Position numbers and translations under genes: made by a program. Positions 1 through 10,296 of a stretch of 10,296 nt of DNA are shown piece by piece. This DNA is from a virus: UHGV virus genome UHGV-0268189, one strand, 5' to 3'. Each line of letters begins with the position of its first letter. The stretch's first letter is position 1. The notes beneath the pieces were generated by a model. It had not been told where the DNA came from and searched no databases. It was given only the letters and a program-made list of their open reading frames with translations.

Positions 1-1
1 C

Positions 2-136
2 GGTGGCTGGAAGGCATTTTTGTGGAAGCCACCCTATGCATACCGGCAGATAAAGGTGACCTGTGCCGGGTGGTCTGCGCGGGTCGGGATGTTGCGCGTT
101 GAGTTCAGCGCGGAGTTTAAGCAGGTGGTGAACTGA
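2..136 (+). CDS. M: Tail protein M, C-terminal 44 codons plus stop, plus-strand copy, partial at left window edge
   Basis: Frame 2 translates to GGWKAFLWKPPYAYRQIKVTCAGWSARVGMLRVEFSAEFKQVVN*, the native M C-terminus. The same bases recur reverse-complemented at 240-362. Confidence 0.7.
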   Translation, partial: GGWKAFLWKPPYAYRQIKVTCAGWSARVGMLRVEFSAEFKQVVN

Positions 137-246
137 TGCAGGATATTCGAGAAGAAAGTCTGAGCGAGTCGGTTAAATCAGAGCAGTCACCGCGGGTGGT
201 ACTCTGGGAAATTGACCTGACGGTGCAGGGTGGTGAGCGTGCTTAA
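136..246 (+). pseudogene. L: Tail protein L, N-terminal 35 codons only, truncated at foldback junction
   Basis: ATG at 136 overlaps the M stop (TGATG). Translation MQDIREESLSESVKSEQSPRVVLWEIDLTVQGGER matches the lambda L N-terminus, then homology ends at 240 and a stop follows at 244-246. Confidence 0.7.
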
Positions 247-556
247 ACTCCGCGCTGAACTCAACGCGCAACATCCCGACCCGCGCAGACCACCCGGCAC
301 AGGTCACCTTTATCTGCCGGTATGCATAGGGTGGCTTCCACAAAAATGCCTTCCAGCCACCGTGCTCTGCCAGGAACGCTTCCAGATGCCGGGCCTCCTC
401 CCGGGTCACGGAAAGCGTCACCCTGTATGTTTTCAGGTCAGCATTCAGCCCTGCCGCCATACGCTGTGAGTACCCGTCACCAAAACGCACTTCACGCACC
501 GATGGCTGCGAGTTCACCTCCATATCCGGCTTCACTTTCCAGCGAAAGGTTTTCAT
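173..556 (-). CDS. M: Tail protein M, first 105 codons native, last 22 codons aberrant read-through across the foldback junction
   Basis: MKTFRWKVKP...RVEFSAEFK matches lambda M; after K (242-244) the ORF reads the reverse complement of the L start (HAHHPAPSGQ...) instead of QVVN*. ATG overlaps the H stop. Confidence 0.8.
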   Translation of the reverse strand: MKTFRWKVKPDMEVNSQPSVREVRFGDGYSQRMAAGLNADLKTYRVTLSVTREEARHLEAFLAEHGGWKAFLWKPPYAYRQIKVTCAGWSARVGMLRVEFSAEFKHAHHPAPSGQFPRVPPAVTALI

Positions 557-3165
557 CCACCGCTCCCTGATAACATACCGCCATCACGCAACTGCAGCCG
601 GAGTTCATCCTGTGCCCCCTTGCGGGCCATCTCATACACCGCTTTCATCAGCTGCGGCCCTGCCCGCCCGTTGGGGCCGTCGTTCTGAATCACCACGTGA
701 TTGTTCTGATTAAAATTAATGCCTTCCGCCCGCCGCATCTGCGCCGGACTTCCGGCACCGCCGACATAACCACCTTCCGCATAGCCCCGCATCAGGCGGT
801 ACAGATTGCCGACACCAATCCGGCTGGTCGCCTCCTTCGTGAAGACAAACTCCCCGCGATGAACAATCCCCGCAGGTTCATATTTACCCCCCGTCCCCGT
901 AAATCCCCCGGTCGCGAAATGGAAGTTCGCCGCCGCAGCCTGAATGGCTGTACCGCCTGACGCGGATGCGCCGCCACCAACAGCCCCGCCAATGGCGCTG
1001 CCGATACTCCCGACTATCCCCACCATCGCCTGCTTCAGAAAAATCTCTGTCAGCATGGACAGCACAGAACGGGTGAAACCACGCCAGTTCTGTTCGCTGC
1101 CGGTCAGCATCGCTGCCATATTCTGTGCAATACCGTCAAAGGTCTGCGTGGCCGCGTTTTTAACCTGCGAAAAACTGTCCGTCGCACTTTCCGCCCACTC
1201 GCCCCAGCCGGACTTCATCCCGGCCATCCAGCTTCCACGAAGCTGCTCCTCCGCAGACCAGGTGTTCTTCAGTGCAGATGTGGCCTTCGCCAGCGCAACC
1301 GGATTATCACCGTACACCTCACGAAGGCGCTGCTCTTCCGACTCCCGCTGCGCCTGACGGTCGGTGAGTCCGCGGGCTTTTGCGCTGATTGCCGCCTGCT
1401 TCGCGCTCTGCTGCTGTTCAAACCGCGCCGCCTGCTGTGCCAGCTCATTCAGCCGTTTCTGGTGTTCAATCTTGTCGCCCAGCTCAGCCAGCTGGCGTTT
1501 GTACTCCAGCGTTTCTTTCTCATGGGCCAGCAGGGATTTTTCCTGCTCAGATAACTGCCGTTTCGTGGCAGCCTCTTTCAGGACCGCATACTGACTTTCC
1601 GCCTTCCATAAATCACGGCGCTGCCGGCTGATTTTCTCATTCGCACCGCTGTGTTTTTCCAGCGTCCTGAGCTCAGCTTCAAGGGCAAGCAGAGCCTCTC
1701 TTGCCTGCTCCTCTTCCCTCTCCCCGGCAGAGCGCGTTTTCGGTGATGTATGCTTTTTACCTGTCAGCTCTTCAGCCAGACGGCTGACGGCTTCCTGCTG
1801 CCCAGGACCTTTGCTGACGCCTGTTGCACGCGAGCGGTTGATGTACCCCATTTCCCCCTGGCGTATACGCGCATCCCGTTCCGCAATGGATTTTCTCAGC
1901 GCCAGTTCATCGCGTTTTGTTTTCTCAATAAATACGCGGTTCTCTTCTGCCAGTTCACCAAACAACGCACCAACGCCGGGCACATTCTTTGTCGTTTCCC
2001 AGGCTGACTGAATAAATTCAGCCAGCGCCAGATCCCCCTGCACAAGCAGCAGCTTCACCTGTTCAACGGTTCCGGCCACCACGTCAGTGATCAGACTGAG
2101 TGCCCCCAGTGTATGATCACCTATCCATGCCCATGCGTCAGAAGTCCAGGTTTTAACATCGTCCCAGATTTTTTCCACCGGCGTGGCCGCTTTATCAAGT
2201 TGCTCCAGACGTGCATTCATGACATCCGCAAACAGGGACATCGCCTCCGTCACCGCAGCCTGTTTACCTTTCGTGCGCTCAAGCTCATCAATATGGCGTA
2301 ACTGGGAAACGCTCAGGAAGTTATACTGCTGATTCAGGGAGGCCAGCGCCTTCACCGGATCTGCTGCAATCCCTTCAAAGGCTTTTTCCACCTTCCCGGC
2401 ATCGTCCCCCACCGTCTGCAGCCATCTCTGAGAGGTTTCCCCCATGATCCGTAGCTGCCCGGCGGTATATTTCCCGCTTTCTGCCAGACGGGCCAGATTT
2501 TCTGCCGCCTGTCTGATACCACCACCGGCTTCATCGCTGATCACCCCGGCCATTTTCCACAATTCTGCCGTTGTGGTGGCAGCCGCCCCTCCGGTCAGGA
2601 TCAGTGAACGCAATAAGGCCCGGTCAGCCTGCTCTGCCTGCCAGGCGGCGGCAGCAAGCGCGGCCAGTACGGCAACCCCGCCACCTGCCGCCACACGGGC
2701 CACCGACATAAATCGTCCCAGCTCACCGGCATTCCGGGCATTTTCAGCCAGTGCATTTGCCGTATCTGACAGCGACTCCTCTGATGATTCAGAGGCATCC
2801 CTGATCCCGAGAAGTTCCTCCTTCAGCAGGGTAAGCAGGCTGAGCGGTCCACCGAATGAATCGCTGATCTGCCCCCCCTGCTGCAGCATGATAAGGAAGG
2901 GATTCTGACCACCGGCAAGCTGAGTGACAATATCCGTGAACTGTGCGGGCAGTGTGCGCATGGCAGCCTTATACTGTCCGACTGATATCCCGGCTTTTTG
3001 TGCAGCCAGCGCCTGTCGGCTCAGCCCCTGTTCAACAGTACTGGCGGTTTTTCTGGCATCCGCCTCCAGACTGGAAAAATGACGGCGTACCCGGGCCATC
3101 TGTTCATCAAACCGGGCCGCATCCAGACTCAAATCAATAACCAGATCACCCGCTGGCTGGGACAT
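553..3165 (-). CDS. H: Tail tape measure protein H (870 aa)
   Basis: N-terminus MSQPAGDLVIDLSLDAARFDEQMARVRRHF and C-terminal third (LWKAESQ...GGFTGTGGKYEPAGIVHRGEFVFTKEATSRIGVGNLYRLMRGYA) match lambda H; central region diverged. RBS GGAGGTG 6 nt upstream. Confidence 0.92.
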   Translation of the reverse strand: MSQPAGDLVIDLSLDAARFDEQMARVRRHFSSLEADARKTASTVEQGLSRQALAAQKAGISVGQYKAAMRTLPAQFTDIVTQLAGGQNPFLIMLQQGGQISDSFGGPLSLLTLLKEELLGIRDASESSEESLSDTANALAENARNAGELGRFMSVARVAAGGGVAVLAALAAAAWQAEQADRALLRSLILTGGAAATTTAELWKMAGVISDEAGGGIRQAAENLARLAESGKYTAGQLRIMGETSQRWLQTVGDDAGKVEKAFEGIAADPVKALASLNQQYNFLSVSQLRHIDELERTKGKQAAVTEAMSLFADVMNARLEQLDKAATPVEKIWDDVKTWTSDAWAWIGDHTLGALSLITDVVAGTVEQVKLLLVQGDLALAEFIQSAWETTKNVPGVGALFGELAEENRVFIEKTKRDELALRKSIAERDARIRQGEMGYINRSRATGVSKGPGQQEAVSRLAEELTGKKHTSPKTRSAGEREEEQAREALLALEAELRTLEKHSGANEKISRQRRDLWKAESQYAVLKEAATKRQLSEQEKSLLAHEKETLEYKRQLAELGDKIEHQKRLNELAQQAARFEQQQSAKQAAISAKARGLTDRQAQRESEEQRLREVYGDNPVALAKATSALKNTWSAEEQLRGSWMAGMKSGWGEWAESATDSFSQVKNAATQTFDGIAQNMAAMLTGSEQNWRGFTRSVLSMLTEIFLKQAMVGIVGSIGSAIGGAVGGGASASGGTAIQAAAANFHFATGGFTGTGGKYEPAGIVHRGEFVFTKEATSRIGVGNLYRLMRGYAEGGYVGGAGSPAQMRRAEGINFNQNNHVVIQNDGPNGRAGPQLMKAVYEMARKGAQDELRLQLRDGGMLSGSGG

Positions 3166-4008
3166 ATCTCACACCTCCGGAAATCCCCGCTGAAGCCATC
3201 ATTAATGCAACATCATCCTCGCTGACATCCACCACATCCGCAGAAGGTGAAATATCGCGCCCTCCGTCCCCTCTGAACCGGACGCCTCCGGCAACTCCTG
3301 TCGCTTTCTGCATCAGCATTTCTTCCTCGTCCGGCATCTCCGTCTGCTCTTCCTCACACGCTGGAGCAAGCAGACTGAAATCCGCCGGATGCATATCCGG
3401 ATCGCCAAAAAACAGGCTGAGTACGGCGTACATCAGCCCGGAAAAATGAGCGTCCAGTTGGGTATCCTGAAAATAATGCGTGCAGTAAAAACGTCGCCAG
3501 TCGGCATATTCGGTGGATGTCATCCCGGCAAGCATGGCGCGCCAGTCGGGTCTCCCCATCTCTCGCGCCAGTTTCAGGACAAAGTTCAGCTCGCCTTCGA
3601 ATGCTTTTTTGATGTTACCGGCTCAGTCGCTTCTGCTTTCCCGGTTTGTTCAGGATCGGCATCGTGCCGGTTATCCAGCATACCTGAAAGATAAAGCACC
3701 CGGTTCGTTGCCTGATTCAGTGCATCAGCAGGCCATCCCAGCATCACTTCACGGCGGATCTGCTGCATCTCTGTCTCCGGAGAGGCCAGAGTGCCTTTGA
3801 GGGAATGGGTATGCCATAGCGACATCGCCACAAGCAGGGATGCCGTTTCCAGATATCGCTGGTTAATGTGCACGACATCATGCTTCGTTGTCTCCTGTTG
3901 TTCTGCGTCTGAAACAAACTTTATATAATCAAACCGCTGCAGCGCAGACAATTCGGAAAGCGTGACGGACATACCGTTATATTCAAATTGTTCTGTTTTC
4001 AGAAACAT
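3146..4008 (-). CDS. T: Tail assembly chaperone G-T fusion made by programmed -1 frameshift from G into the T frame
   Basis: The -1 frame is open from 3622 down to the stop at 3146 and encodes ...AFEGELNFVLKLAREMGRPDWRAMLAGMTSTEYADWRRFY..., matching lambda T. It has no independent start upstream and overlaps the G 3' end, as in lambda G/GT. Confidence 0.8.
3172..3178 (-). promoter_or_regulatory. Ribosome binding site for H (GGAGGTG)
   Basis: Reverse complement of cacctcc, 6 nt upstream of the H ATG at 3165. Confidence 0.6.
3586..4008 (-). CDS. G: Tail assembly chaperone G (140 aa)
   Basis: MFLKTEQFEYNGMSVTLSELSALQR... matches lambda G (MFLKTESFEHNGVTVTLSELSALQR). RBS GGAGGT at 4014-4019. 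Position between V and H. Confidence 0.9.
   Translation of the reverse strand: MFLKTEQFEYNGMSVTLSELSALQRFDYIKFVSDAEQQETTKHDVVHINQRYLETASLLVAMSLWHTHSLKGTLASPETEMQQIRREVMLGWPADALNQATNRVLYLSGMLDNRHDADPEQTGKAEATEPVTSKKHSKAS
3604..3610 (-). promoter_or_regulatory. -1 ribosomal frameshift slippery heptamer A AAA AAG for G to G-T
   Basis: Minus strand ...aca tca aaa aag cat...: zero-frame codons AAA AAG preceded by A. It lies 3' of the T-frame stop (3623-3625) and 5' of the G stop (3586-3588), the only interval where a shift can yield GT. Confidence 0.7.
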
Positions 4009-4013
4009 GTATT

Positions 4014-4019
4014 ACCTCC
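4014..4019 (-). promoter_or_regulatory. Ribosome binding site for G (GGAGGT)
   Basis: Reverse complement of acctcc, 5 nt upstream of the G ATG at 4008. Confidence 0.6.
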
Positions 4020-4260
4020 GTTTACCCTGCAGCGCCCGCTTCAGTAACGGTGACTTCAGCCACTGCGGCGAACTGACCATTTCCGCTCACCACAGGGATC
4101 TGCACCTTACCTGTCGCCACGCCGTTTACCGTAATTGTCATATCTTTCACACTAATGGTGGCTTTCGACGGATCGGCGGAAACCGCTCTGAACGTCTTGT
4201 CGGTTGCACTTTCCGGCTCAAAAGAAACCGTCAGGGTGGTTGTTTTCCCTTTTGCCACCG

Positions 4261-4509
4261 TACCGGATGTCGGCGTCACCTTAATCGCACTGACCGGCGT
4301 AATTTTGCTGCGTTCTTCCGAAATCCGTTTTCCGAATGGCACGGTGGATGTGTTTCGTGGCTGGGTCAGCAGTATCGGTAAGGCCGTGACGGCGAAAGAA
4401 GTGATCACCCGCACGGTGAAAGTCACTAACGTGGGTAAACCTTCTGTAGCGGAAGAACGCAGCAAAATTACGCCGGTCAGTGCGATTAAGGTGACGCCGA
4501 CATCCGGTA
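4261..4509. repeat. Perfect 60-bp inverted repeat, arms 4261-4320 and 4450-4509 (V codons [19 protein letters not shown])
   Basis: Reverse complement of 4450-4509 equals 4261-4320 exactly by direct comparison. Confidence 0.9.
4321..4509 (+). other. V-gene internal segment (codons about 109-172) in inverted, plus orientation
   Basis: Plus-strand translation [63 protein letters not shown] is collinear with lambda V ([39 protein letters not shown]...), opposite to the rest of the gene. Confidence 0.85.
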
Positions 4510-4564
4510 AGGTGGAAAACCCAGCCACGAAACACATCCACCGTGCCATTCGGAAAACGGATTT
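4321..4564. repeat. Perfect 46-bp inverted repeat, arms 4321-4366 and 4519-4564 (V codons [15 protein letters not shown])
   Basis: Reverse complement of 4321-4366 equals 4519-4564 exactly; mismatch at both flanks. Confidence 0.9.
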
Positions 4565-4896
4565 TATAGGCCCGGACATCGCCGCTTTCAAACCAGCCTA
4601 TAAGCCCTTTCTGGCCTTCCTCTCCCGGTTTCCAGGCCAGCGTAAAACTGGTATCACCTGCAGATTTCTGCCCCTGCCCGGTCGCGGTCCAGTCCGCGTC
4701 TTCATCATCCAGGTAGTTATCATCGTAGGATTCTGCCGTCATCTCGCCCGGCGTCAGATCCTTCACCTTAGCCAGTCGCTGCCAGTCATCGTCTGACAAC
4801 GGGTTTGCATAAGCATCACCCTTGCCGTTGTAAACCCACAGAGTGGTACCGGCACCTTTTACCGGCTCAAGGGGATTTGGTGTTGCCATATCGTCC

Positions 4897-5292
4897 TCAC
4901 ATCTCGTATGTAATGGAATAAGTCAGATCTGCAGAACTCCATAACGCCATATCGTCATCACGACGATACTCATAGCCCTGCGTAACCATCGTGGTAATCA
5001 GTCCTGCCAGTGCCGGGATCGCAGTCATCGCCGGGTAAATCCGGCTTTCCATCCACTGATCAAGCTCTGAATCCGGTACCTGTGCCGGTAAAAACACCTC
5101 AATATGCAGCGTGGCCCGCCAGGTATCTGCATCCAGCTCTTCACCGGTATACTCTGCATCCGTCAGATAAACCGCGATCGCAGGAAAATCCTCTTCGTCA
5201 AAAACAACGGGGCGACCATCAAACAGCGTCGCCCCGTGTTCATGCTGCTCGAGTGCATCCAGCACTGCGGCACGAATGTCAGTGTGTTTCAT
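4897..5292 (-). CDS. U: Tail terminator protein U (131 aa)
   Basis: [28 protein letters not shown]...[11 protein letters not shown] matches lambda U ([28 protein letters not shown]...). 396 nt as in lambda; ATGA overlap with Z. Confidence 0.9.
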
Positions 5293-5864
5293 CGTTTTAT
5301 TGCAATCCTCAGTTGTTGTTTCAGCGCGTATGCCAGTTCTTTAGGCAGGCGTTCACGCCGGATACGGTCAACATTCTCATCAAATGCCTGTTTCAGTGGG
5401 GCCGCCATCGGGATTTTCACCACCTGAATGGGAAGGCGATTACGCTTTTTCCTTCCCTTGTCGTCATTGCCCTCCTCATATCTGGCCTGGGGAAGACGTT
5501 GCATAACATGCCAGCGCCCATTATTTAATCGCTGGATAAATGCCCGCTGATAACGATGCTGACCGGCTTTGAGTATGCTGTTCGGACGACGCCCCAGCAT
5601 TCTGATCCCCAGCTTAATCACAGGGAGATCACCGCGGTTAACGATAATTCTGGCATTCGGATTTCTGACCGTCGCCCGTTTCAGTCTGGACCGTTCCTTT
5701 ACCAGTTTCCGTCTCACCCTGGTTTCCCGGGCAACCTGTGACGAAGACTGATTAATCGCCGTTGTGGCCACGCGGTTAATGGTCATTGCAGAAGCAGCCG
5801 GAATGGCGTTTTTACGAACCCGGCTCAGATTATCAATCGCCTGATCAAGCCCTTTTATCGCCAT
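5289..5864 (-). CDS. Z: Tail completion protein Z (191 aa)
   Basis: MAIKGLDQAIDNLSRVRKNAIPAASAMTINRVA...[25 protein letters not shown] matches lambda Z at both termini; central part diverged. Confidence 0.88.
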   Translation of the reverse strand: MAIKGLDQAIDNLSRVRKNAIPAASAMTINRVATTAINQSSSQVARETRVRRKLVKERSRLKRATVRNPNARIIVNRGDLPVIKLGIRMLGRRPNSILKAGQHRYQRAFIQRLNNGRWHVMQRLPQARYEEGNDDKGRKKRNRLPIQVVKIPMAAPLKQAFDENVDRIRRERLPKELAYALKQQLRIAIKR

Positions 5865-5879
5865 AATTTCACCCTGCGT

Positions 5880-6233
5880 TTATCGTCGCCGGTTAACAGC
5901 GGGTGGTTGCCCACGGTTGAGCCAGAGATAACAGCTTCCACCATCATCCGGCGAAACCCGGTCTATCCAGAAGTTTTCCTCACCGATGGTCAGCGTGTCT
6001 CCACGCCGCAGTTGCCGCACATCATCAGTCCGGACAAACAGGGACGGGCTGGAGCCTTCAACGCGCACGCCCTGTCCGGCATAGCTGATATTTTCAGGGT
6101 CATCAAAAACACCACGTATTACTGCGCCGGACTGCTCACCGGATGTCATGGTGGCTGACGTTCCCATGTACCCGCGTATCGTTTCATCGGCGCGGGCAAT
6201 GGCAGCATCGAACAGGTTATCGAAATCAGCCAC
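5880..6233 (-). CDS. FII: Head-tail joining protein FII (117 aa)
   Basis: MADFDNLFDAAIARADETIRGYMGTSATMTSGEQSGAVIRGVFDDPENISYAGQGVRVEGSS... near-identical to lambda FII; 354 nt as in lambda. Confidence 0.92.
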   Translation of the reverse strand: MADFDNLFDAAIARADETIRGYMGTSATMTSGEQSGAVIRGVFDDPENISYAGQGVRVEGSSPSLFVRTDDVRQLRRGDTLTIGEENFWIDRVSPDDGGSCYLWLNRGQPPAVNRRR

Positions 6234-6244
6234 AGCGCCTCCCG

Positions 6245-6631
6245 TTATTGCATTCTGGCCAGGCCGCGCTCTGTCATTTCAGCTGCCACACCGGCAGAGA
6301 CACGGAACGCCGTTCCCGGCAGCACAAATGCCACAGTGTCATCCCGCGTGGCGTGAAGTGCATCAGTATGCAGCGTCACCAGTGCCACAACCGTGACCAG
6401 ATCAGCCGTATCAGTCACGGTATCCGGCTGCGCTGATACAACCTCATTTTCATGTCCGGTCAGCGCATTTTCCGGGCTGATAGGGGTATCCTGATCGGCA
6501 GTGTCATCAAGCTCCTCTTCCAGCTCTGCCACACGGAGCGCCAGTTCTTCTTTCGTTCCCGTCAGGCTGACATCACGGTTCAGTTGCTCACCCAGCTCCT
6601 GAAGACGGGCAATCAGTTCATCTTTCGTCAT
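6245..6631 (-). CDS. FI: DNA packaging / head completion protein FI (128 aa)
   Basis: Start taken at the internal Met of the 141-aa ORF (MTKDELIARLQELGEQLNRDVSLTGTKEELALRVAEL...), which matches the lambda FI N-terminus and has RBS GAGGAG at 6635-6640. C-terminus ...VAAEMTERGLARMQ matches lambda. Confidence 0.88.
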   Translation of the reverse strand: MTKDELIARLQELGEQLNRDVSLTGTKEELALRVAELEEELDDTADQDTPISPENALTGHENEVVSAQPDTVTDTADLVTVVALVTLHTDALHATRDDTVAFVLPGTAFRVSAGVAAEMTERGLARMQ

Positions 6632-6634
6632 GAA

Positions 6635-6640
6635 CTCCTC
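6635..6640 (-). promoter_or_regulatory. Ribosome binding site for FI (GAGGAG)
   Basis: Reverse complement of ctcctc immediately upstream of the FI ATG at 6631. Confidence 0.5.
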
Positions 6641-6653
6641 CACAGAGAGAAAA

Positions 6654-6669
6654 TGGCCCCGAAGGGCCA
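6654..6669 (-). promoter_or_regulatory. GC-rich stem-loop with UUCG tetraloop in the E-FI intergenic region
   Basis: Sense strand 5'-UGGCCC UUCG GGGCCA-3' (6-bp stem) just after the E stop, followed by UUUUCUCUCU and the FI RBS. Confidence 0.5.
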
Positions 6670-6672
6670 CGA

Positions 6673-7698
6673 TTACGCCAGTTGTACGGAAACGAACTCA
6701 TCAGGGTCAGCCAGCAGCATCAGCGGTGCTGACTGAATCATGGTGAACTCACGCGCCGGATCGCCGGTGGTCACCCAGTTTTTCGGGTAACGGGCAGAGG
6801 CGTTAATGCCTTCGCGCTGTGCATCCGCATCCTGAATGCAGCCATAGGTGCGCAGACCGCGTGCATGAGTGTTACCCAGCACCATCGTGTTGTCCGGCAG
6901 GAAGTTCTTTTTGACGCCGTTTTCCACGTACTGTCCGGAATACACGACGATGGCCACATCGCCATACATTCCCTTATAAGACACCGCTTTGCCCAGGTCT
7001 TTTACCGCTGTCTCCAGTTCGGAATGAGAGCCGCGACGGGTATCCAGCTTCTCCCTGACGGCTTTGAAGGAACGGAACAGCGCCCAGCCTTTCGGGTCAA
7101 ACACGATGATATTCACCACGCCGCTGGCGTTCAGCGCGTAGGCTTCGATATCGTCGGTCGGGTCATACGTGGACTTGTCACGCTTGCTCCACTCCGTGTC
7201 GCCGGACTGTGTGATGTTGTTCGCCGCACTGCGGCCCATATCCACCTCAACCGGATCAAAGGCTTCACCGGTCATGGTGTATTTGCCCTTAAGCACGGCA
7301 GAAACTGCCTGCATCTCTTCGACCTGGGCAATGGCCAGCTCTTCGTCACGCATGTTCTGCATGATGATGCGACGGCGGCGGTAAGCCGGGTCCGCCAGAT
7401 TCTGCGGATCTTCATCCGGCAGGCGACGCAGGGTCATCTGCGGATTCACCTCATGCTTCGGCTTGACATATCCCGGCGTAAATTCAGAGGTGGAGCCGCC
7501 ACGGGAACGGATAACCTCACCGGAAACAATCGGCGAAACGTACAGCGCCATGTTTACCAGTCCCGGAATTTGTGAGAGATAAACTTTCTCCGTGGTGAAG
7601 GGATAGCTCTCACGGAAAAAGAGACGCAGAAACAGCGGATCAAACTTAAATTTATGCTCATTTGCCGCCAGCAGCTGGGCGGTTGTGTACATCGACAT
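6673..7698 (-). CDS. E: Major capsid protein E (341 aa)
   Basis: Start at the Met giving MSMYTTAQLLAANEHKFKFDPLFLRLFFRESYPFTTEKVYLSQIPGLVNMALYVSP..., near-identical to lambda E over its full length; 1026 nt as in lambda. The ORF-track start at 7725 is an upstream in-frame extension. Confidence 0.95.
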   Translation of the reverse strand: MSMYTTAQLLAANEHKFKFDPLFLRLFFRESYPFTTEKVYLSQIPGLVNMALYVSPIVSGEVIRSRGGSTSEFTPGYVKPKHEVNPQMTLRRLPDEDPQNLADPAYRRRRIIMQNMRDEELAIAQVEEMQAVSAVLKGKYTMTGEAFDPVEVDMGRSAANNITQSGDTEWSKRDKSTYDPTDDIEAYALNASGVVNIIVFDPKGWALFRSFKAVREKLDTRRGSHSELETAVKDLGKAVSYKGMYGDVAIVVYSGQYVENGVKKNFLPDNTMVLGNTHARGLRTYGCIQDADAQREGINASARYPKNWVTTGDPAREFTMIQSAPLMLLADPDEFVSVQLA

Positions 7699-7711
7699 AA
7701 AAAAATCCCGT

Positions 7712-7736
7712 AAAAAAAGCCGCACAGGCGGCCTTT
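7712..7736 (-). terminator. Intrinsic-terminator-like hairpin in the D-E intergenic region (stem GCCGC/GCGGC, loop CUGU, then U7)
   Basis: Sense strand 5'-AAAGGCCGCCUGUGCGGCUUUUUUUACGGGAUUUUUUU-AUG(E). Plus-strand stem arms at 7719-7723 and 7728-7732, flanked by A7 at 7712-7718. Confidence 0.45.
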
Positions 7737-7753
7737 AGTGATGAAGGGTAAGG

Positions 7754-8086
7754 TTAAACGATGCTGATTGCCGTTCCGGCAAACGCGGTCCGTTTTTTCG
7801 TCTCGTCGCTGGCAGCCTCCGGCCAGAGCACATCCTCATAACGGAACGTGCCGGACTTGTAGAACGTCAGCGTGGTGCTGGTCTGGTCAGCAGCAACCGC
7901 AAGAATGCCAACGGCAGCACCGTCGGTGGTGCCATCCCACGCAACCAGCTTACGGGTGGAGGTATCCGGCATCAGCGGGGTCATTGCAGGCGCTTTCGCA
8001 CTCAATCCGCCGGGCGCGGTTGCGGTATGAGCCGGGTCACTGTTGCCCAGCGGCTGGTAATGGGTAAAGGTTTCTTTGCTCGTCAT
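7754..8086 (-). CDS. D: Head decoration protein D (110 aa)
   Basis: Start at the Met giving [110 protein letters not shown], near-identical to lambda D; 333 nt and 9-nt gap after C as in lambda. Confidence 0.95.
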
Positions 8087-8095
8087 AAACATCCC

Positions 8096-8701
8096 TTACA
8101 CTGGTGTGTTCAGCAAATCGTTAACGGCATCAGATGCCAGGTTACCTGCAGCCAGCGGTGCCGGTGCCCCCTGCATCAGACGATCCAGCGCAGTATCACT
8201 GCGCGCCTGTGCACTCTGTGGTGCTGCGGCCAGAATGCGGCGGGCCGTTTCCACGGTCATACCGGGGGTTTCTGCCAGCACGCGGGCCTGTTCTTCGCGT
8301 CCGTGAGCCTCCTCACAGTTGAGGATCCCCATAATGCGGCTGTTTTCTGCCGCAACCGCAGCGTTGATCTGCGCGTTCACGTCCGGCTGCGCCGCGCTGG
8401 CGTTTTGGCCCTCCATCGCTGGCACCACGCCAGTAACGTCAGCCTGCGAAGCAGTGGCTGAAACAGTTGTTGATTGAGTCTCTTTGGTCATTCGCCCTCC
8501 TGAGAGACGGGATTTACGTGCATCCAGTGCATCACGCATGATGGTGATCGCATCGGTACTGTTAACAAGTTCATCAGCCAGTCCGGCATCAATGGCCTCC
8601 TGACCGCTGTACACTGCAGCCTCGGTATCCAGCACAGCCTGCACGGACAGGCCGGTATATGCCGACACCTTCTGTGCAAACATCCGGCGGGTTGCATCCA
8701 T
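8096..8701 (-). CDS. nu3: Capsid scaffolding protein Nu3 (201 aa), in-frame internal start within C
   Basis: ATG at 8699-8701 in the C frame (MDATRRMFAQKVSAYTGLSVQAVLD...); same stop as C; 606 nt as in lambda Nu3. Confidence 0.8.
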   Translation of the reverse strand: MDATRRMFAQKVSAYTGLSVQAVLDTEAAVYSGQEAIDAGLADELVNSTDAITIMRDALDARKSRLSGGRMTKETQSTTVSATASQADVTGVVPAMEGQNASAAQPDVNAQINAAVAAENSRIMGILNCEEAHGREEQARVLAETPGMTVETARRILAAAPQSAQARSDTALDRLMQGAPAPLAAGNLASDAVNDLLNTPV

Positions 8702-9415
8702 CCGGGACTGCAGTGTTTCCCGGACATCATCCGGTAGATGGCTGTAGGGGTTGCCATCCACCTTATGGCTGCCGCTGTAAATCAGCGTGATTTCCACGCC
8801 CTGTTTCTCCAGCGCAGCACCGTAATTACTGTGAGCCATCATGACGCCGATGGAGCCTGTCCGGGCGGTCTGCGTGACCAGACGCCGGGAGGCGGCACTG
8901 GCAAGCAGCTGACCTGCGCTGCAGTTCATGTCATTGGCCAGCGCCCATACCGGCTTTATGTCACGCACACGGGCGATGATGTCAGCGCAGTCAAATGCCC
9001 CTGCCACCATTCCGCCGGGCGTGTCCATATCCAGCAGAATGCCGTCCACCATCGGGTCGCTGGCAGCCTGTTGCAGACGGGCGATAATGCCGTTGTAACC
9101 GGTCATCCCCGAATACGGCTGCAGCGCCCGCGTCCGGCAGACCAGCGTGCCGGAAACCGGCAGCACGGCGATGCCGTTCATGACCTGATAACTGCGGGCC
9201 TGTCGTGGTACGTCATCATTAACGGATAACGCCAGCTTCGCGGGTGCCTCTCCGGCAGTCAGGCTGTCACCGGACACCGCATCCGTCAGGCGGCTGATCC
9301 CAAGCTGGCCTGCAAGCGCACAAAAGAAAACCCGCGCATAGGCGGGTTCAAGCATAAGCGGCTCATTAAAGGCCATGCTGGCAATATGCGGGAGATTACG
9401 CAGCTCTGCTGTCAC
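8096..9415 (-). CDS. C: Head protease / minor capsid protein C (439 aa, GTG start)
   Basis: From GTG at 9413-9415 (RBS GAGGAGGAG at 9420-9428) the frame gives (M)TAELRNLPHIASMAFNEPLMLEPAYARVFFCALAGQLGIS...NDLLNTPV, near-identical to lambda C; 1320 nt; 20-nt overlap with the B 3' end as in lambda. Confidence 0.93.
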   Translation of the reverse strand: MTAELRNLPHIASMAFNEPLMLEPAYARVFFCALAGQLGISRLTDAVSGDSLTAGEAPAKLALSVNDDVPRQARSYQVMNGIAVLPVSGTLVCRTRALQPYSGMTGYNGIIARLQQAASDPMVDGILLDMDTPGGMVAGAFDCADIIARVRDIKPVWALANDMNCSAGQLLASAASRRLVTQTARTGSIGVMMAHSNYGAALEKQGVEITLIYSGSHKVDGNPYSHLPDDVRETLQSRMDATRRMFAQKVSAYTGLSVQAVLDTEAAVYSGQEAIDAGLADELVNSTDAITIMRDALDARKSRLSGGRMTKETQSTTVSATASQADVTGVVPAMEGQNASAAQPDVNAQINAAVAAENSRIMGILNCEEAHGREEQARVLAETPGMTVETARRILAAAPQSAQARSDTALDRLMQGAPAPLAAGNLASDAVNDLLNTPV

Positions 9416-10155
9416 TCTTCTCCTCCTCTGTTGATTGTCGCAGTCCGGATTCAAATGCCGCAGCCGCCCAGGCGGGCGGTTTAAGACCGGCTGCACGGCG
9501 CTCCATCGTTTCACGGACCTGCTGGGCAAAAATTTCCTGATAGTCGTCACCGCGTTTTGCGCACTCTTTCTCGTAGGTACTCAGTCCGGCTTCTATCAGC
9601 ATCACCGCTTCCTGAACTTCTTTCAGACCATCGATGGCCATACGACCGGAGCCTATCCAGTCACAGTTCCCCCAGGCGCTGCGGGCTTCCTGAAAGCTGA
9701 AACGCGCTTTTGAAGGTAACGTCACCACGCGGCGAACGATGGCCTCTTCCAGCCAGCACAGAAACATCTGGCTCGCCTGACGGGATGCGACGAATTTTCG
9801 CCGCCCCATAAAGTACGCCCACGACTCGTTCGCACTGGCCCGTGCCGTGGAATAGCTCATCTGGGCGTAATTCCGGGAAAGCTGCTCATACGAGACACCC
9901 AGCCCGGCAGCGATATACCGCAACAGTGACTGCTCAAACACGGAGTAGCCGTTATCCGTATCCTGAGCCGTCTGCAGGTTCAGTGAGTCACCCGGCATCA
10001 GGTGCGGCACTTTTGCGCCTCCCAGCCGAACCGGTGCTGCGGCGTAATACGCGGCAATTTCACCAATCCAGCCGGTCAGCTTGTCCCGCTGCTCCTGACT
10101 GTTCGCGCCCAGAATAAAATCCATCGCTGACTGCGTATCCAGCTCACTCTCAATG
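9396..10155 (-). CDS. B: Portal protein B, C-terminal ~253 codons only; upstream part replaced by foldback junction
   Basis: Minus frame reads IESELDTQSAMDFILGANSQEQRDKLTGWIGEIAAYYAAAPVRLGG...STEEEKSDSRAA*, matching the lambda B C-terminal half. Upstream of about 10155 the frame reads unrelated residues and hits a stop at 10194-10196. The ORF-track start at 10124 is an internal Met. Confidence 0.85.
9420..9428 (-). promoter_or_regulatory. Ribosome binding site for C (GAGGAGGAG)
   Basis: Reverse complement of ctcctcctc, 4 nt upstream of the GTG at 9415. Confidence 0.6.
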
Positions 10156-10296
10156 CCCGTGGAGGACGGGCAGACCCGCGGTGCAAATGTGTTTTACAGC
10201 GTGATGGAGCAGATGAAGATGCTCGACACGCTGCAGAACACGCAGCTGCAGAGCGCCATTGTGAAGGCGATGTATGCCGCCACCATTGAGAGTGAG
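10143..10296. repeat. Inverted repeat, arms 10143-10155 and 10284-10296 (right arm cut by window edge), spacer 128 bp
   Basis: Reverse complement of 10284-10296 (cattgagagtgag) equals 10143-10155; mismatch at 10156/10283. Confidence 0.7.
10150..10296 (+). CDS. B: Portal protein B internal fragment in plus orientation, partial, runs off right window edge
   Basis: Plus frame from 10150: SMPVEDGQTRGANVFYSVMEQMKMLDTLQNTQLQSAIVKAMYAATIESE, the B segment immediately N-terminal of IESELDTQSAMDF in lambda. Confidence 0.8.

What the first reader, a model, noticed from the sequence alone, without database searches (positions are those of the whole stretch)
10143..10296. Right-edge foldback inside portal gene B at a short inverted microhomology
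Minus-strand B is collinear with lambda B from IESELDTQSAMDF (10154) to its stop (9396). Immediately right, the plus strand encodes the B segment that normally precedes IESE (SMPVEDGQTRGANVFYSVMEQMKMLDTLQNTQLQSAIVKAMYAATIESE) and ends at 10296 with the same IESE codons in opposite orientation. The switch point lies in tcactctcaatg (10145-10156), which reads SLSM on the plus strand and IESE on the minus strand, the kind of short inverted microhomology at which template switching occurs. No intact portal gene is encoded here.
Basis: partly seen in the sequence, partly recalled or inferred. Interest (0 to 1): 0.7.

Follow-up and report, generated by a model that had tools for sequence, protein, structure and literature searches.

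The report
Backwards-glued read-sized piece, likely assembly artefact
The last 141 bases of this window are a piece of a lambda-type portal gene joined on backwards. It is one of three such flipped, read-sized pieces in an otherwise ordinary E. coli prophage segment, and it is most likely a sequencing or assembly artefact, not a biological rearrangement.

Summary
The strand switch is real in the sequence. The minus strand at 10154-9396 encodes lambda B residues 282-533, and the plus strand at 10156-10296 encodes B residues 239-285. The joint lies at 10155/10156.

The 13-nt match (10143-10155 and 10284-10296) is the same B site read twice, because the flipped piece runs 13 nt back into sequence already covered. 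The joint itself is blunt, with 0 nt shared.

The window has four such joints: 239/240, 4320/4321, 4519/4520 and 10155/10156. They share 0, 0, 1 and 0 nt of homology and jump 116-154 nt. Three flipped tiles (239, 199 and 141 nt) sit on a backbone that is 100% identical to intact prophages. The only other differences from the best-matching loci are one substitution at 9615 and two C>A changes found in no other searched sequence, within 10 nt of a joint.

None of the joints occurs in 5,426 complete E. coli genomes, and the right-edge joint is also absent from five other collections. A toy multi-k de Bruijn assembly of paired reads joined without reverse-complementing reproduces the topology; properly split mates never do.

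Verdict: artefact. Low interest.

The parts
9396..10155 (-). 3' part of portal gene B: residues 282-533 plus stop, plus one base of codon 281. This is the end of the long forward tile T3 (4520-10155).
   Evidence: Translation and exact match to lambda B and L002 B. BLAST collinearity 4519-10155, with 0-1 mismatch to L002/L006/L007/L010.
10155..10156 (.). Joint J4: a blunt strand switch. Reference position 12356 (+) is joined to 12484 (-) in L001 coordinates, a jump of 128 nt.
   Evidence: neither alignment extends across the joint (0 nt microhomology).
10156..10296 (+). Flipped tile T4, exactly 141 nt: B codons 239-285 read on the opposite strand. 100% identical to the native sequence.
10143..10155 (.). 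Left copy of the 13-nt inverted match (partner 10284-10296). Both copies are the same native B site (T-IESE codons). This is the start of an inverted-duplication arm that is cut off by the window end, not a junction microhomology.
   Evidence: Coordinates: tiles T3 and T4 overlap by 13 reference bases.
10284..10296 (.). Right copy of the 13-nt inverted match. It forms the last 13 bases of tile T4 and of the window.
1..239 (+). Flipped tile T0 (239 nt) at the left window edge: the end of gene M and the start of gene L in the wrong orientation. Blunt joint J1 at 239/240, jump 116 nt, 123-nt inverted arms (1-123 / 240-362).
   Evidence: (I1, 100% complementary).
240..4320 (-). Forward tile T1: M (truncated), H tape measure, T, G and the C-terminal part of V. 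100% identical to L002/L004/L006/L007/L010/L011.
4321..4519 (+). Flipped tile T2 (199 nt) inside major tail gene V. Blunt joints J2 (4320/4321, jump 129) and J3 (4519/4520, jump 153-154, 1 nt shared). It overlaps T1 by 70 nt and T3 by 46 nt, so no reference base is lost. It carries two C>A differences at 4510 and 4516.
   Evidence: (I2, I3). The double variant is absent from complete E. coli genomes and IMG/VR.

Best explanation
The right-edge fold-back is an artefact of how this contig was built, not a rearrangement of a phage genome.

The window is an ordinary lambda-like E. coli prophage structural module (genes M to B). It is covered by five overlapping tiles of native sequence, and the three short, read-sized tiles (239, 199 and 141 nt) have been joined bluntly in the wrong orientation.

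The mechanism I consider most likely is inferred, not shown. In the input reads the two mates of a forward-reverse (FR) pair were treated as one sequence, R1 followed by un-reverse-complemented R2. This is what SRA fastq-dump writes when mates are not split (my own knowledge of the tool). Chimeric reads of the same shape would have the same effect. Each such record reads forward to the 3' end of R1, then jumps ahead by (insert size minus read length, about 115-155 nt) and reads back on the other strand.

Where true coverage was too thin for native overlaps to reach the k-mer size, a multi-k de Bruijn assembler kept these false links. The result is a flipped tile at each contig end and one flipped tile bridging a thin spot in gene V. 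The right-hand tile is exactly 141 nt, which is MEGAHIT's default largest k (my own knowledge of the tool). That is the length expected if the false path stops at the first fully native k-mer, where it rejoins a branching node.

Sub-claim confidences: artefact of any kind about 0.85; the specific concatenated-mate and k=141 route about 0.45. The confidence field (0.8) refers to the headline claim that this is an artefact of sequencing or assembly.
For: (1) There are four strand-switch joints in 10.3 kb, and both window ends are flipped tiles.
(2) All joints are blunt, sharing 0, 0, 1 and 0 nt. This is what random breakpoints give.
(3) The jumps are tightly clustered at 116, 129, 153-154 and 128 nt, as an insert-size distribution minus read length would be.
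(4) The tiles overlap by 123, 70, 46 and 13 nt and together cover the reference without losing a base. All arms are shorter than 141 nt.
(5) Outside the joints the window is 100% identical to intact prophages in several E. coli assemblies, with 0-1 mismatch in about 10 kb. Three gene-destroying rearrangements would therefore have arisen with essentially no point divergence.
(6) The only other differences are two C>A changes 4 and 10 nt from joint J3. They are not seen together in 1,565 E. coli genomes carrying this stretch (best match 99.2% identity) or in IMG/VR. This fits single-read support.
(7) No record spans J4 in 5,426 complete E. coli genomes, PLSDB or INPHARED. The J4 32-mer is absent from IMG/VR, GTDB genomes and JGI metagenomes. 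J1 and J2+J3 are likewise absent from complete E. coli genomes.
(8) Three independent draft assemblies have contigs that start at window 10125/10126. An assembly-graph branch point therefore lies 30 nt from J4.
(9) I ran a toy multi-k (21-141) unitig assembler on L002 with simulated 2x150 pairs and 280-nt inserts. Concatenated mates gave contigs with flipped terminal tiles at one or both ends: 22/48 contigs at 4x, 31/106 at 5x, 2/18 at 6x and 1/7 at 8x coverage, with jumps of 100-161 nt. Split mates gave 0/56. When junction k-mers survived the count filter, internal forward-reverse-forward tiles of 100-300 nt appeared, and terminal tile lengths spiked at exactly 141 and 150.
Against: The source record and its reads could not be found, so coverage and read support were not checked.

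The toy assembler is not MEGAHIT. Internal flipped tiles appeared only in settings that also shredded contigs far more than this window is shredded.

The 141 = k coincidence is post hoc. The left tile is 239 nt, not k.

Under the mate model the two C>A changes fall at bases 4 and 10 of a read's 5' end, not at a low-quality 3' end.

Any fold-back joint can formally be written as an R1|R2 pair, so only the narrow jump distribution and the bluntness are informative.

A mature assembler would normally prune such links.
Confidence: 0.8

Rival explanations
1. Physically real chimeric molecules were made in vitro before sequencing, and the assembler then reconstructed them faithfully. Candidates are phi29 multiple displacement amplification of a low-input sample or virome, or fold-back or strand-split artefacts of library preparation.
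For: MDA chimeras are 85% inverted joins of nearby segments, occur about once per 10-22 kb, and are intramolecular and favoured by proximity (PMC1855051). That is the same broad geometry and density as here. Changes near a joint that are found nowhere else could be polymerase or end-repair errors.
Against: In MDA, 93.5% of inverted joins less than 10 kb apart show at least 2 bp of complementarity at the joint. Here 0 of 4 do; if joints are independent that is about 0.065^4 = 2e-5. MDA jump distances are broad, up to kilobases, not 116-154 nt. Each MDA chimera is a rare individual event and should be outvoted in a consensus unless it was clonally amplified. A flipped tile that overlaps both flanks so that no base is lost is not predicted.
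Confidence: 0.1
2. A genuine in vivo rearrangement. Replication template switching or fold-back priming in a decaying prophage produced inverted duplications with short spacers in M/L, V and B.
For: The middle event has the formal four-point shape of a template-switch mutation (forward, copy the opposite strand, return). Fold-back inverted duplications with short spacers are a known outcome of hairpin-primed repair (established knowledge). Prophages do decay: related loci show natural deletions, for example in L009.
Against: There is no microhomology or pre-existing inverted repeat at any of the four joints, and both mechanisms need one. Three complex events coincide with 0-1 point substitutions relative to intact relatives. 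The joints are absent from every collection searched; the right-edge joint, for example, is absent from all 3,182 complete E. coli genomes that carry this portal segment. Two of the three events coincide with the window ends. The tile sizes are read-like.
Confidence: 0.04
3. The sequence was edited or concatenated after assembly. Candidates are a scaffolding or gap-filling step that inserted reads or small contigs in the wrong orientation without trimming overlaps, or a deliberately manipulated sequence.
For: The tile picture fits a layout or consensus error: native tiles that overlap by 13-123 nt, with alternate short ones flipped and the joins blunt. A 13-nt overlap is too short to have been found by an overlapper, which suggests placement by mate or reference information.
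Against: No N-gaps or other scaffolding marks are present. The two changes next to J3 found nowhere else look like real read errors rather than clean in-silico edits. I know of no specific tool that does this.
Confidence: 0.06

Closest known systems
Un-split paired-end records (R1 followed by un-reverse-complemented R2) assembled as single reads; false fold-back links in de Bruijn graphs
   Same: Blunt joint. Strand switch to a point about (insert minus read length) ahead. Both polarities occur. Flipped read-sized tiles sit at contig ends. Arms are shorter than k. The terminal tile equals k. The topology was reproduced in the toy simulation, and only with concatenated mates.
   Different: Not demonstrated for this contig, because reads and provenance are unavailable. 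The real assembler's pruning was not modelled. That fastq-dump concatenates mates by default is my own knowledge of the tool, not a cited source (searches gave no usable citation).
phi29 MDA inverted chimeras (Lasken & Stockwell 2007, PMC1855051)
   Same: Inverted join of two nearby segments of the same molecule, with the intervening stretch skipped. Roughly one or more per 10-20 kb.
   Different: MDA joins start at 2-21 nt of complementarity in over 90% of proximal cases; here 0/4 do. MDA distances are broad; here they are 116-154 nt.
Template-switch mutations and fold-back inverted duplications (quasi-palindrome-primed strand switching, hairpin-primed break repair)
   Same: Forward/reverse/forward copying of a nearby stretch, producing inverted arms around a single-copy spacer.
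   Different: Those mechanisms need a short inverted repeat or microhomology at the switch points; none is present. They should also be heritable and so visible in related genomes; none carries these joints.
Site-specific invertible segments (Gin/Hin/Cin-type) and hairpin telomeres (N15-type protelomerase)
   Same: Both produce a sequence read in opposite orientation next to inverted repeats or a terminal fold-back, in lambdoid or temperate phages.
   Different: Invertible segments have inverted repeats that exist in every copy, and they duplicate nothing. Here the 'repeats' are single-copy in intact relatives. Hairpin telomeres give a loop-less palindrome at a dedicated tel site, not a 128-nt one-sided spacer in the middle of the portal gene.

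Membership tests
   forward to L001 12356, then reverse from 12484; jump 128 nt.
   0 nt at J4 and 0, 0, 1 nt at the other joints. The 13-nt match is one native site read twice.
   Absent from all collections searched. The source reads are not available.
phi29 MDA inverted chimera | Inverted join of segments less than 10 kb apart with the intervening sequence skipped | tested here: met
   compared with PMC1855051.
phi29 MDA inverted chimera | Priming at 2 bp or more of complementarity (93.5% of proximal inverted joins) | tested here: not met
   0 of 4 joints.
Concatenated-mate / de Bruijn assembly artefact | Blunt joints whose jump lengths follow a narrow, insert-size-like distribution | tested here: met
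   Jumps of 116, 129, 153-154 and 128 nt; 0-1 nt shared. The toy simulation gives 100-161 nt for a 280-nt insert and 150-nt reads.
Concatenated-mate / de Bruijn assembly artefact | Inverted arms all shorter than the assembler's k; terminal flipped tile equal to k or to the read length | tested here: met
   Arms of 123, 70, 46 and 13 nt are all below 141. The right tile is exactly 141 nt. The toy simulation shows spikes at 141 and 150. That k = 141 is MEGAHIT's default is my own knowledge; the assembler actually used is unknown.
Concatenated-mate / de Bruijn assembly artefact | Joints supported only by records with the joint at the R1/R2 boundary, while properly paired reads support the native order | not testable with these tools
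   Source run not identified.
Site-specific invertible segment | Flanking inverted repeats present in all copies, inversion without duplication, recombinase nearby | tested here: not met
   Arms are single-copy in intact prophages L001-L011. The flanks are duplicated. No recombinase gene lies in the module.

The most novel reading that the evidence does not exclude
The four blunt, 116-154-nt fold-back joints are physically real. They would belong to a defective lambda-like genome, for example in a virome or a stressed lysogen, and would have been made by a homology-independent strand-switching or hairpin-ligation process acting repeatedly along one molecule. Such a process has not been described for lambdoid phages.
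Probability: 0.04. Interest if true: 0.55.

Novelty: not a real feature. Interest (0 to 1): 0.07.

Why it matters
If this is an artefact, as I conclude, its value is practical. Contigs of this kind create false truncated genes (here M, V and the portal gene). They also create false inverted repeats at contig ends that can be mistaken for ITRs, hairpin telomeres or invertible segments, and false 'template-switch' events. The signature found here could be used to flag such contigs in bulk: blunt joints, jumps equal to insert minus read length, arms shorter than k, a terminal tile equal to k, and a backbone identical to intact relatives. If the joints were real, they would point to a repeated, homology-independent strand-switching process on phage DNA. 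That would be surprising, but nothing here supports it.

Tried and rejected
(1) Tracing the source contig to extend it rightwards. The exact J4 32-mer gave no hit in IMG/VR, GTDB genomes or JGI metagenomes. Exact-product look-ups of ORFs unique to the chimera (202 aa, 127 aa and 48 aa) found nothing on record. The 242-aa truncated B product led only to ordinary contig-edge partial genes (L012-L014) and to an unrelated MEGAHIT contig, L015.

(2) Asking whether T2's two odd bases are natural variation from a second prophage copy. The double variant is absent from complete E. coli genomes and from IMG/VR, so a paralogue origin is rejected.

(3) MDA mispriming. Rejected as the main explanation on junction complementarity.

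(4) N15-type hairpin telomere and Gin/Hin-type invertible segment. Rejected on anatomy: a one-sided 128-nt spacer, duplicated flanks, arms that are single-copy in relatives, and no recombinase gene.

(5) The mercy-k-mer route alone in the toy assembler. It explains terminal tiles but produced no internal flipped tile. Internal tiles needed junction k-mers to survive the count filter.

(6) Literature searches for a citable statement on fastq-dump concatenation, or on hairpin contig ends in metagenome assemblies. These gave nothing directly usable.

(7) A 16-nt near-match between the J3 flank (4504-4519) and the reverse complement of 2384-2399 (I13) was considered as a possible third template. 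It is left unexplained and is probably chance.

Full report
**What is in the window.** The 10,296-nt window is a lambda-type structural module read on the minus strand. ORFs and exact-product look-ups give M (truncated), H tape measure (870 aa), T, G, V (disrupted), U, Z, FII, FI, E, D, C/Nu3 and the 3' part of portal gene B. It matches Stx1a-converting phages at about 96% identity and many E. coli prophages at over 99%.

**Checking the observation.**
- The minus strand from 10154 to 9396 translates to IESELDTQSAMDF...SRAA*. This is residues 282-533 of both lambda B and the B of the intact prophage L002.
- The plus strand 10156-10296 translates to PVEDGQ...AATIESE, which is B residues 239-285.
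- So the fold-back inside B is real in the sequence, and B residues 1-238 are missing.
- Three details need correcting. 'SM' is not portal sequence: native B reads FIHVFE-PVEDG, and the ATG at 10153-10155 is created by the joint.

**Anatomy against intact relatives.** BLAST against an intact prophage (L001, NZ_CP145714) resolves the window into five tiles of native sequence:

| Tile | Window | L001 reference | Orientation |
|---|---|---|---|
| T0 | 1-239 | 2442-2680 | flipped |
| T1 | 240-4320 | 2558-6638 | forward |
| T2 | 4321-4519 | 6569-6767 | flipped |
| T3 | 4520-10155 | 6722-12356 | forward |
| T4 | 10156-10296 | 12344-12484 | flipped |

- Neighbouring tiles overlap on the reference by 123, 70, 46 and 13 nt, so no reference base is lost.
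It is one native site read on both strands, and its length is set by where the window stops.
- At the true joints, neither flanking alignment can be extended by more than one base. They share 0, 0, 1 and 0 nt (repeated on the 100%-identical L002).
- The jumps are 116, 129, 153-154 and 128 nt.

**Identity to relatives.**
- Ten loci that encode an identical H protein are all collinear, intact prophages.
- Against L002, L006, L007 and L010 the tiles T0, T1, T3 and T4 show 0-1 mismatch in about 10 kb.
- The only other differences are two C>A changes at 4510 and 4516, which lie 10 and 4 nt from joint J3.
- That double variant is not found in any of the 1,565 complete E. coli genomes that carry this stretch (best match 99.2% identity), nor in IMG/VR.

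**Is the joint seen anywhere else?** No.
- A 200-nt query centred on J4 is never covered beyond 50% in 5,426 complete E. coli genomes. Of these, 3,182 carry the segment, at 9,005 places. The same holds for PLSDB and INPHARED.
- The exact J4 32-mer is absent from IMG/VR, GTDB species genomes and JGI metagenome contigs.
- J1 and J2+J3 are likewise absent from complete E. coli genomes.
- ORFs unique to the chimera are not on record, so the source contig could not be traced or extended.
- Three draft assemblies have contigs that begin at window 10125/10126. This shows that a usual short-read assembly break, a repeat boundary between co-resident lambdoid prophages, lies 30 nt from J4.

**Weighing mechanisms.**
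- Here 0 of 4 joints have it. The probability under the MDA figure is about 2e-5, if joints are independent.
- Natural decay would also have to produce three complex, gene-destroying events with essentially no point substitutions. Two of those events would have to fall by chance at the two ends of the window.
- Site-specific inversion and hairpin telomeres fail on anatomy: the flanks are duplicated, the arms are single-copy in relatives, and the spacer is one-sided and 128 nt long.

**The explanation I favour.**
- Several features point to a computational join of read-sized tiles: blunt joints, a narrow jump distribution, read-sized flipped tiles, flipped tiles at both ends, no loss of reference bases, arms all shorter than 141 nt, and errors next to a joint that look like single-read errors.
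- The simplest source is paired reads handled as one record, R1 followed by un-reverse-complemented R2. This is the default behaviour of SRA fastq-dump without splitting (my own knowledge; searches gave no citation).
- Such a record reads forward to the end of R1, jumps ahead by insert minus read length, and reads back on the other strand.
- In a multi-k de Bruijn assembler these false links survive where native overlaps are shorter than k.
- The right tile is exactly 141 nt, MEGAHIT's default largest k (my own knowledge). That is the length expected if the false path ends at the first fully native k-mer, where it rejoins a branching node.

**Simulation.** I wrote a toy multi-k (21-141) unitig assembler with solid and mercy k-mers and tip removal. 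I ran it on L002 with simulated 2x150 pairs and 280±15-nt inserts.

| Input | Coverage | Contigs (≥500 nt) with a strand switch |
|---|---|---|
| Concatenated mates | 4x | 22 of 48 |
| Concatenated mates | 5x | 31 of 106 |
| Concatenated mates | 6x | 2 of 18 |
| Concatenated mates | 8x | 1 of 7 |
| Split mates (control) | 4x and 6x | 0 of 56 |

- With concatenated mates, the switched contigs carried flipped terminal tiles at one or both ends. One example was a 3,067-nt contig with 203- and 205-nt flipped ends. Joints were blunt and jumps were 100-161 nt.
- When junction k-mers survived the count filter (min-count 1, or 30% duplicate pairs), internal forward-reverse-forward tiles of 100-300 nt appeared. 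Terminal tile lengths then spiked at exactly 141 and 150.
- Those settings also fragmented contigs far more than this window is fragmented, and the toy is not MEGAHIT. The simulation therefore shows plausibility, not proof.

**Verdict.**
- The feature is best filed as not a real biological feature. I give about 0.85 to an artefact of some kind and about 0.45 to the specific concatenated-mate, k=141 route.
- Rivals: in-vitro chimeric molecules about 0.10, post-assembly editing about 0.06, genuine in vivo rearrangement about 0.04.
- The decisive evidence would be read-level support at the four joints, or junction-specific PCR on the source DNA.

Noticed in passing
window 1-362: Left-edge counterpart of the finding. 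A 239-nt flipped tile (end of M, start of L) is joined bluntly at 239/240. It has perfect 123-nt inverted arms (1-123 / 240-362) around a 116-nt spacer. M is truncated after codon 105.
   Followed up: yes
window 4251-4564: Internal counterpart in major tail gene V. A 199-nt flipped tile (4321-4519) has blunt joints on both sides and 70-nt and 46-nt inverted arms. Two C>A changes (4510, 4516) next to joint J3 are seen together in no other searched sequence.
   Followed up: yes
window 4504-4519 vs 2384-2399: The 16 nt just left of joint J3, including the two odd bases, match the reverse complement of 2384-2399 (inside H) at 15/16 positions (I13). This could be chance or a third short template. 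It is unexplained.
   Followed up: partly
window 10125-10126 (L012-L014 position 1): Three unrelated draft E. coli assemblies have contigs that start at this same point inside B. It is a recurrent assembly break, presumably the boundary of sequence shared among co-resident lambdoid prophages.
   Followed up: partly
window 3636-3642 (minus strand): GGGAAAG lies about 50 nt before the stop of gene G and is followed by the overlapping T frame. This is the classic lambda G/GT -1 programmed frameshift site, and it is intact here.
   Followed up: partly
L009 about 7008/7009 (corresponds to window 3891-5903): A related prophage (GCA_017687015.1) has a clean 2,013-nt deletion that removes Z, U, V and parts of FII and G. 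It leaves a 210-aa FII-G fusion ORF. This is an example of genuine prophage decay and contrasts with the window's flipped tiles.
   Followed up: partly
L001 10298-11616: In the otherwise intact reference prophage of strain S1-CAM-01-A, the C (S49 peptidase/scaffold) gene is annotated as a frameshifted pseudogene. This is consistent with the two gap openings seen in the window-versus-L001 alignment.
   Followed up: no
window 9615: This is the single substitution (A versus T) separating the 5.6-kb tile T3 from L002/L006/L007.
   Followed up: no
L015 1-20: The ENA MEGAHIT contig k141_63203 carries 20 nt of unrelated sequence in front of an otherwise native B segment. This produces the same 242-aa truncated portal ORF. 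It is not a nearby fold-back.
   Followed up: partly
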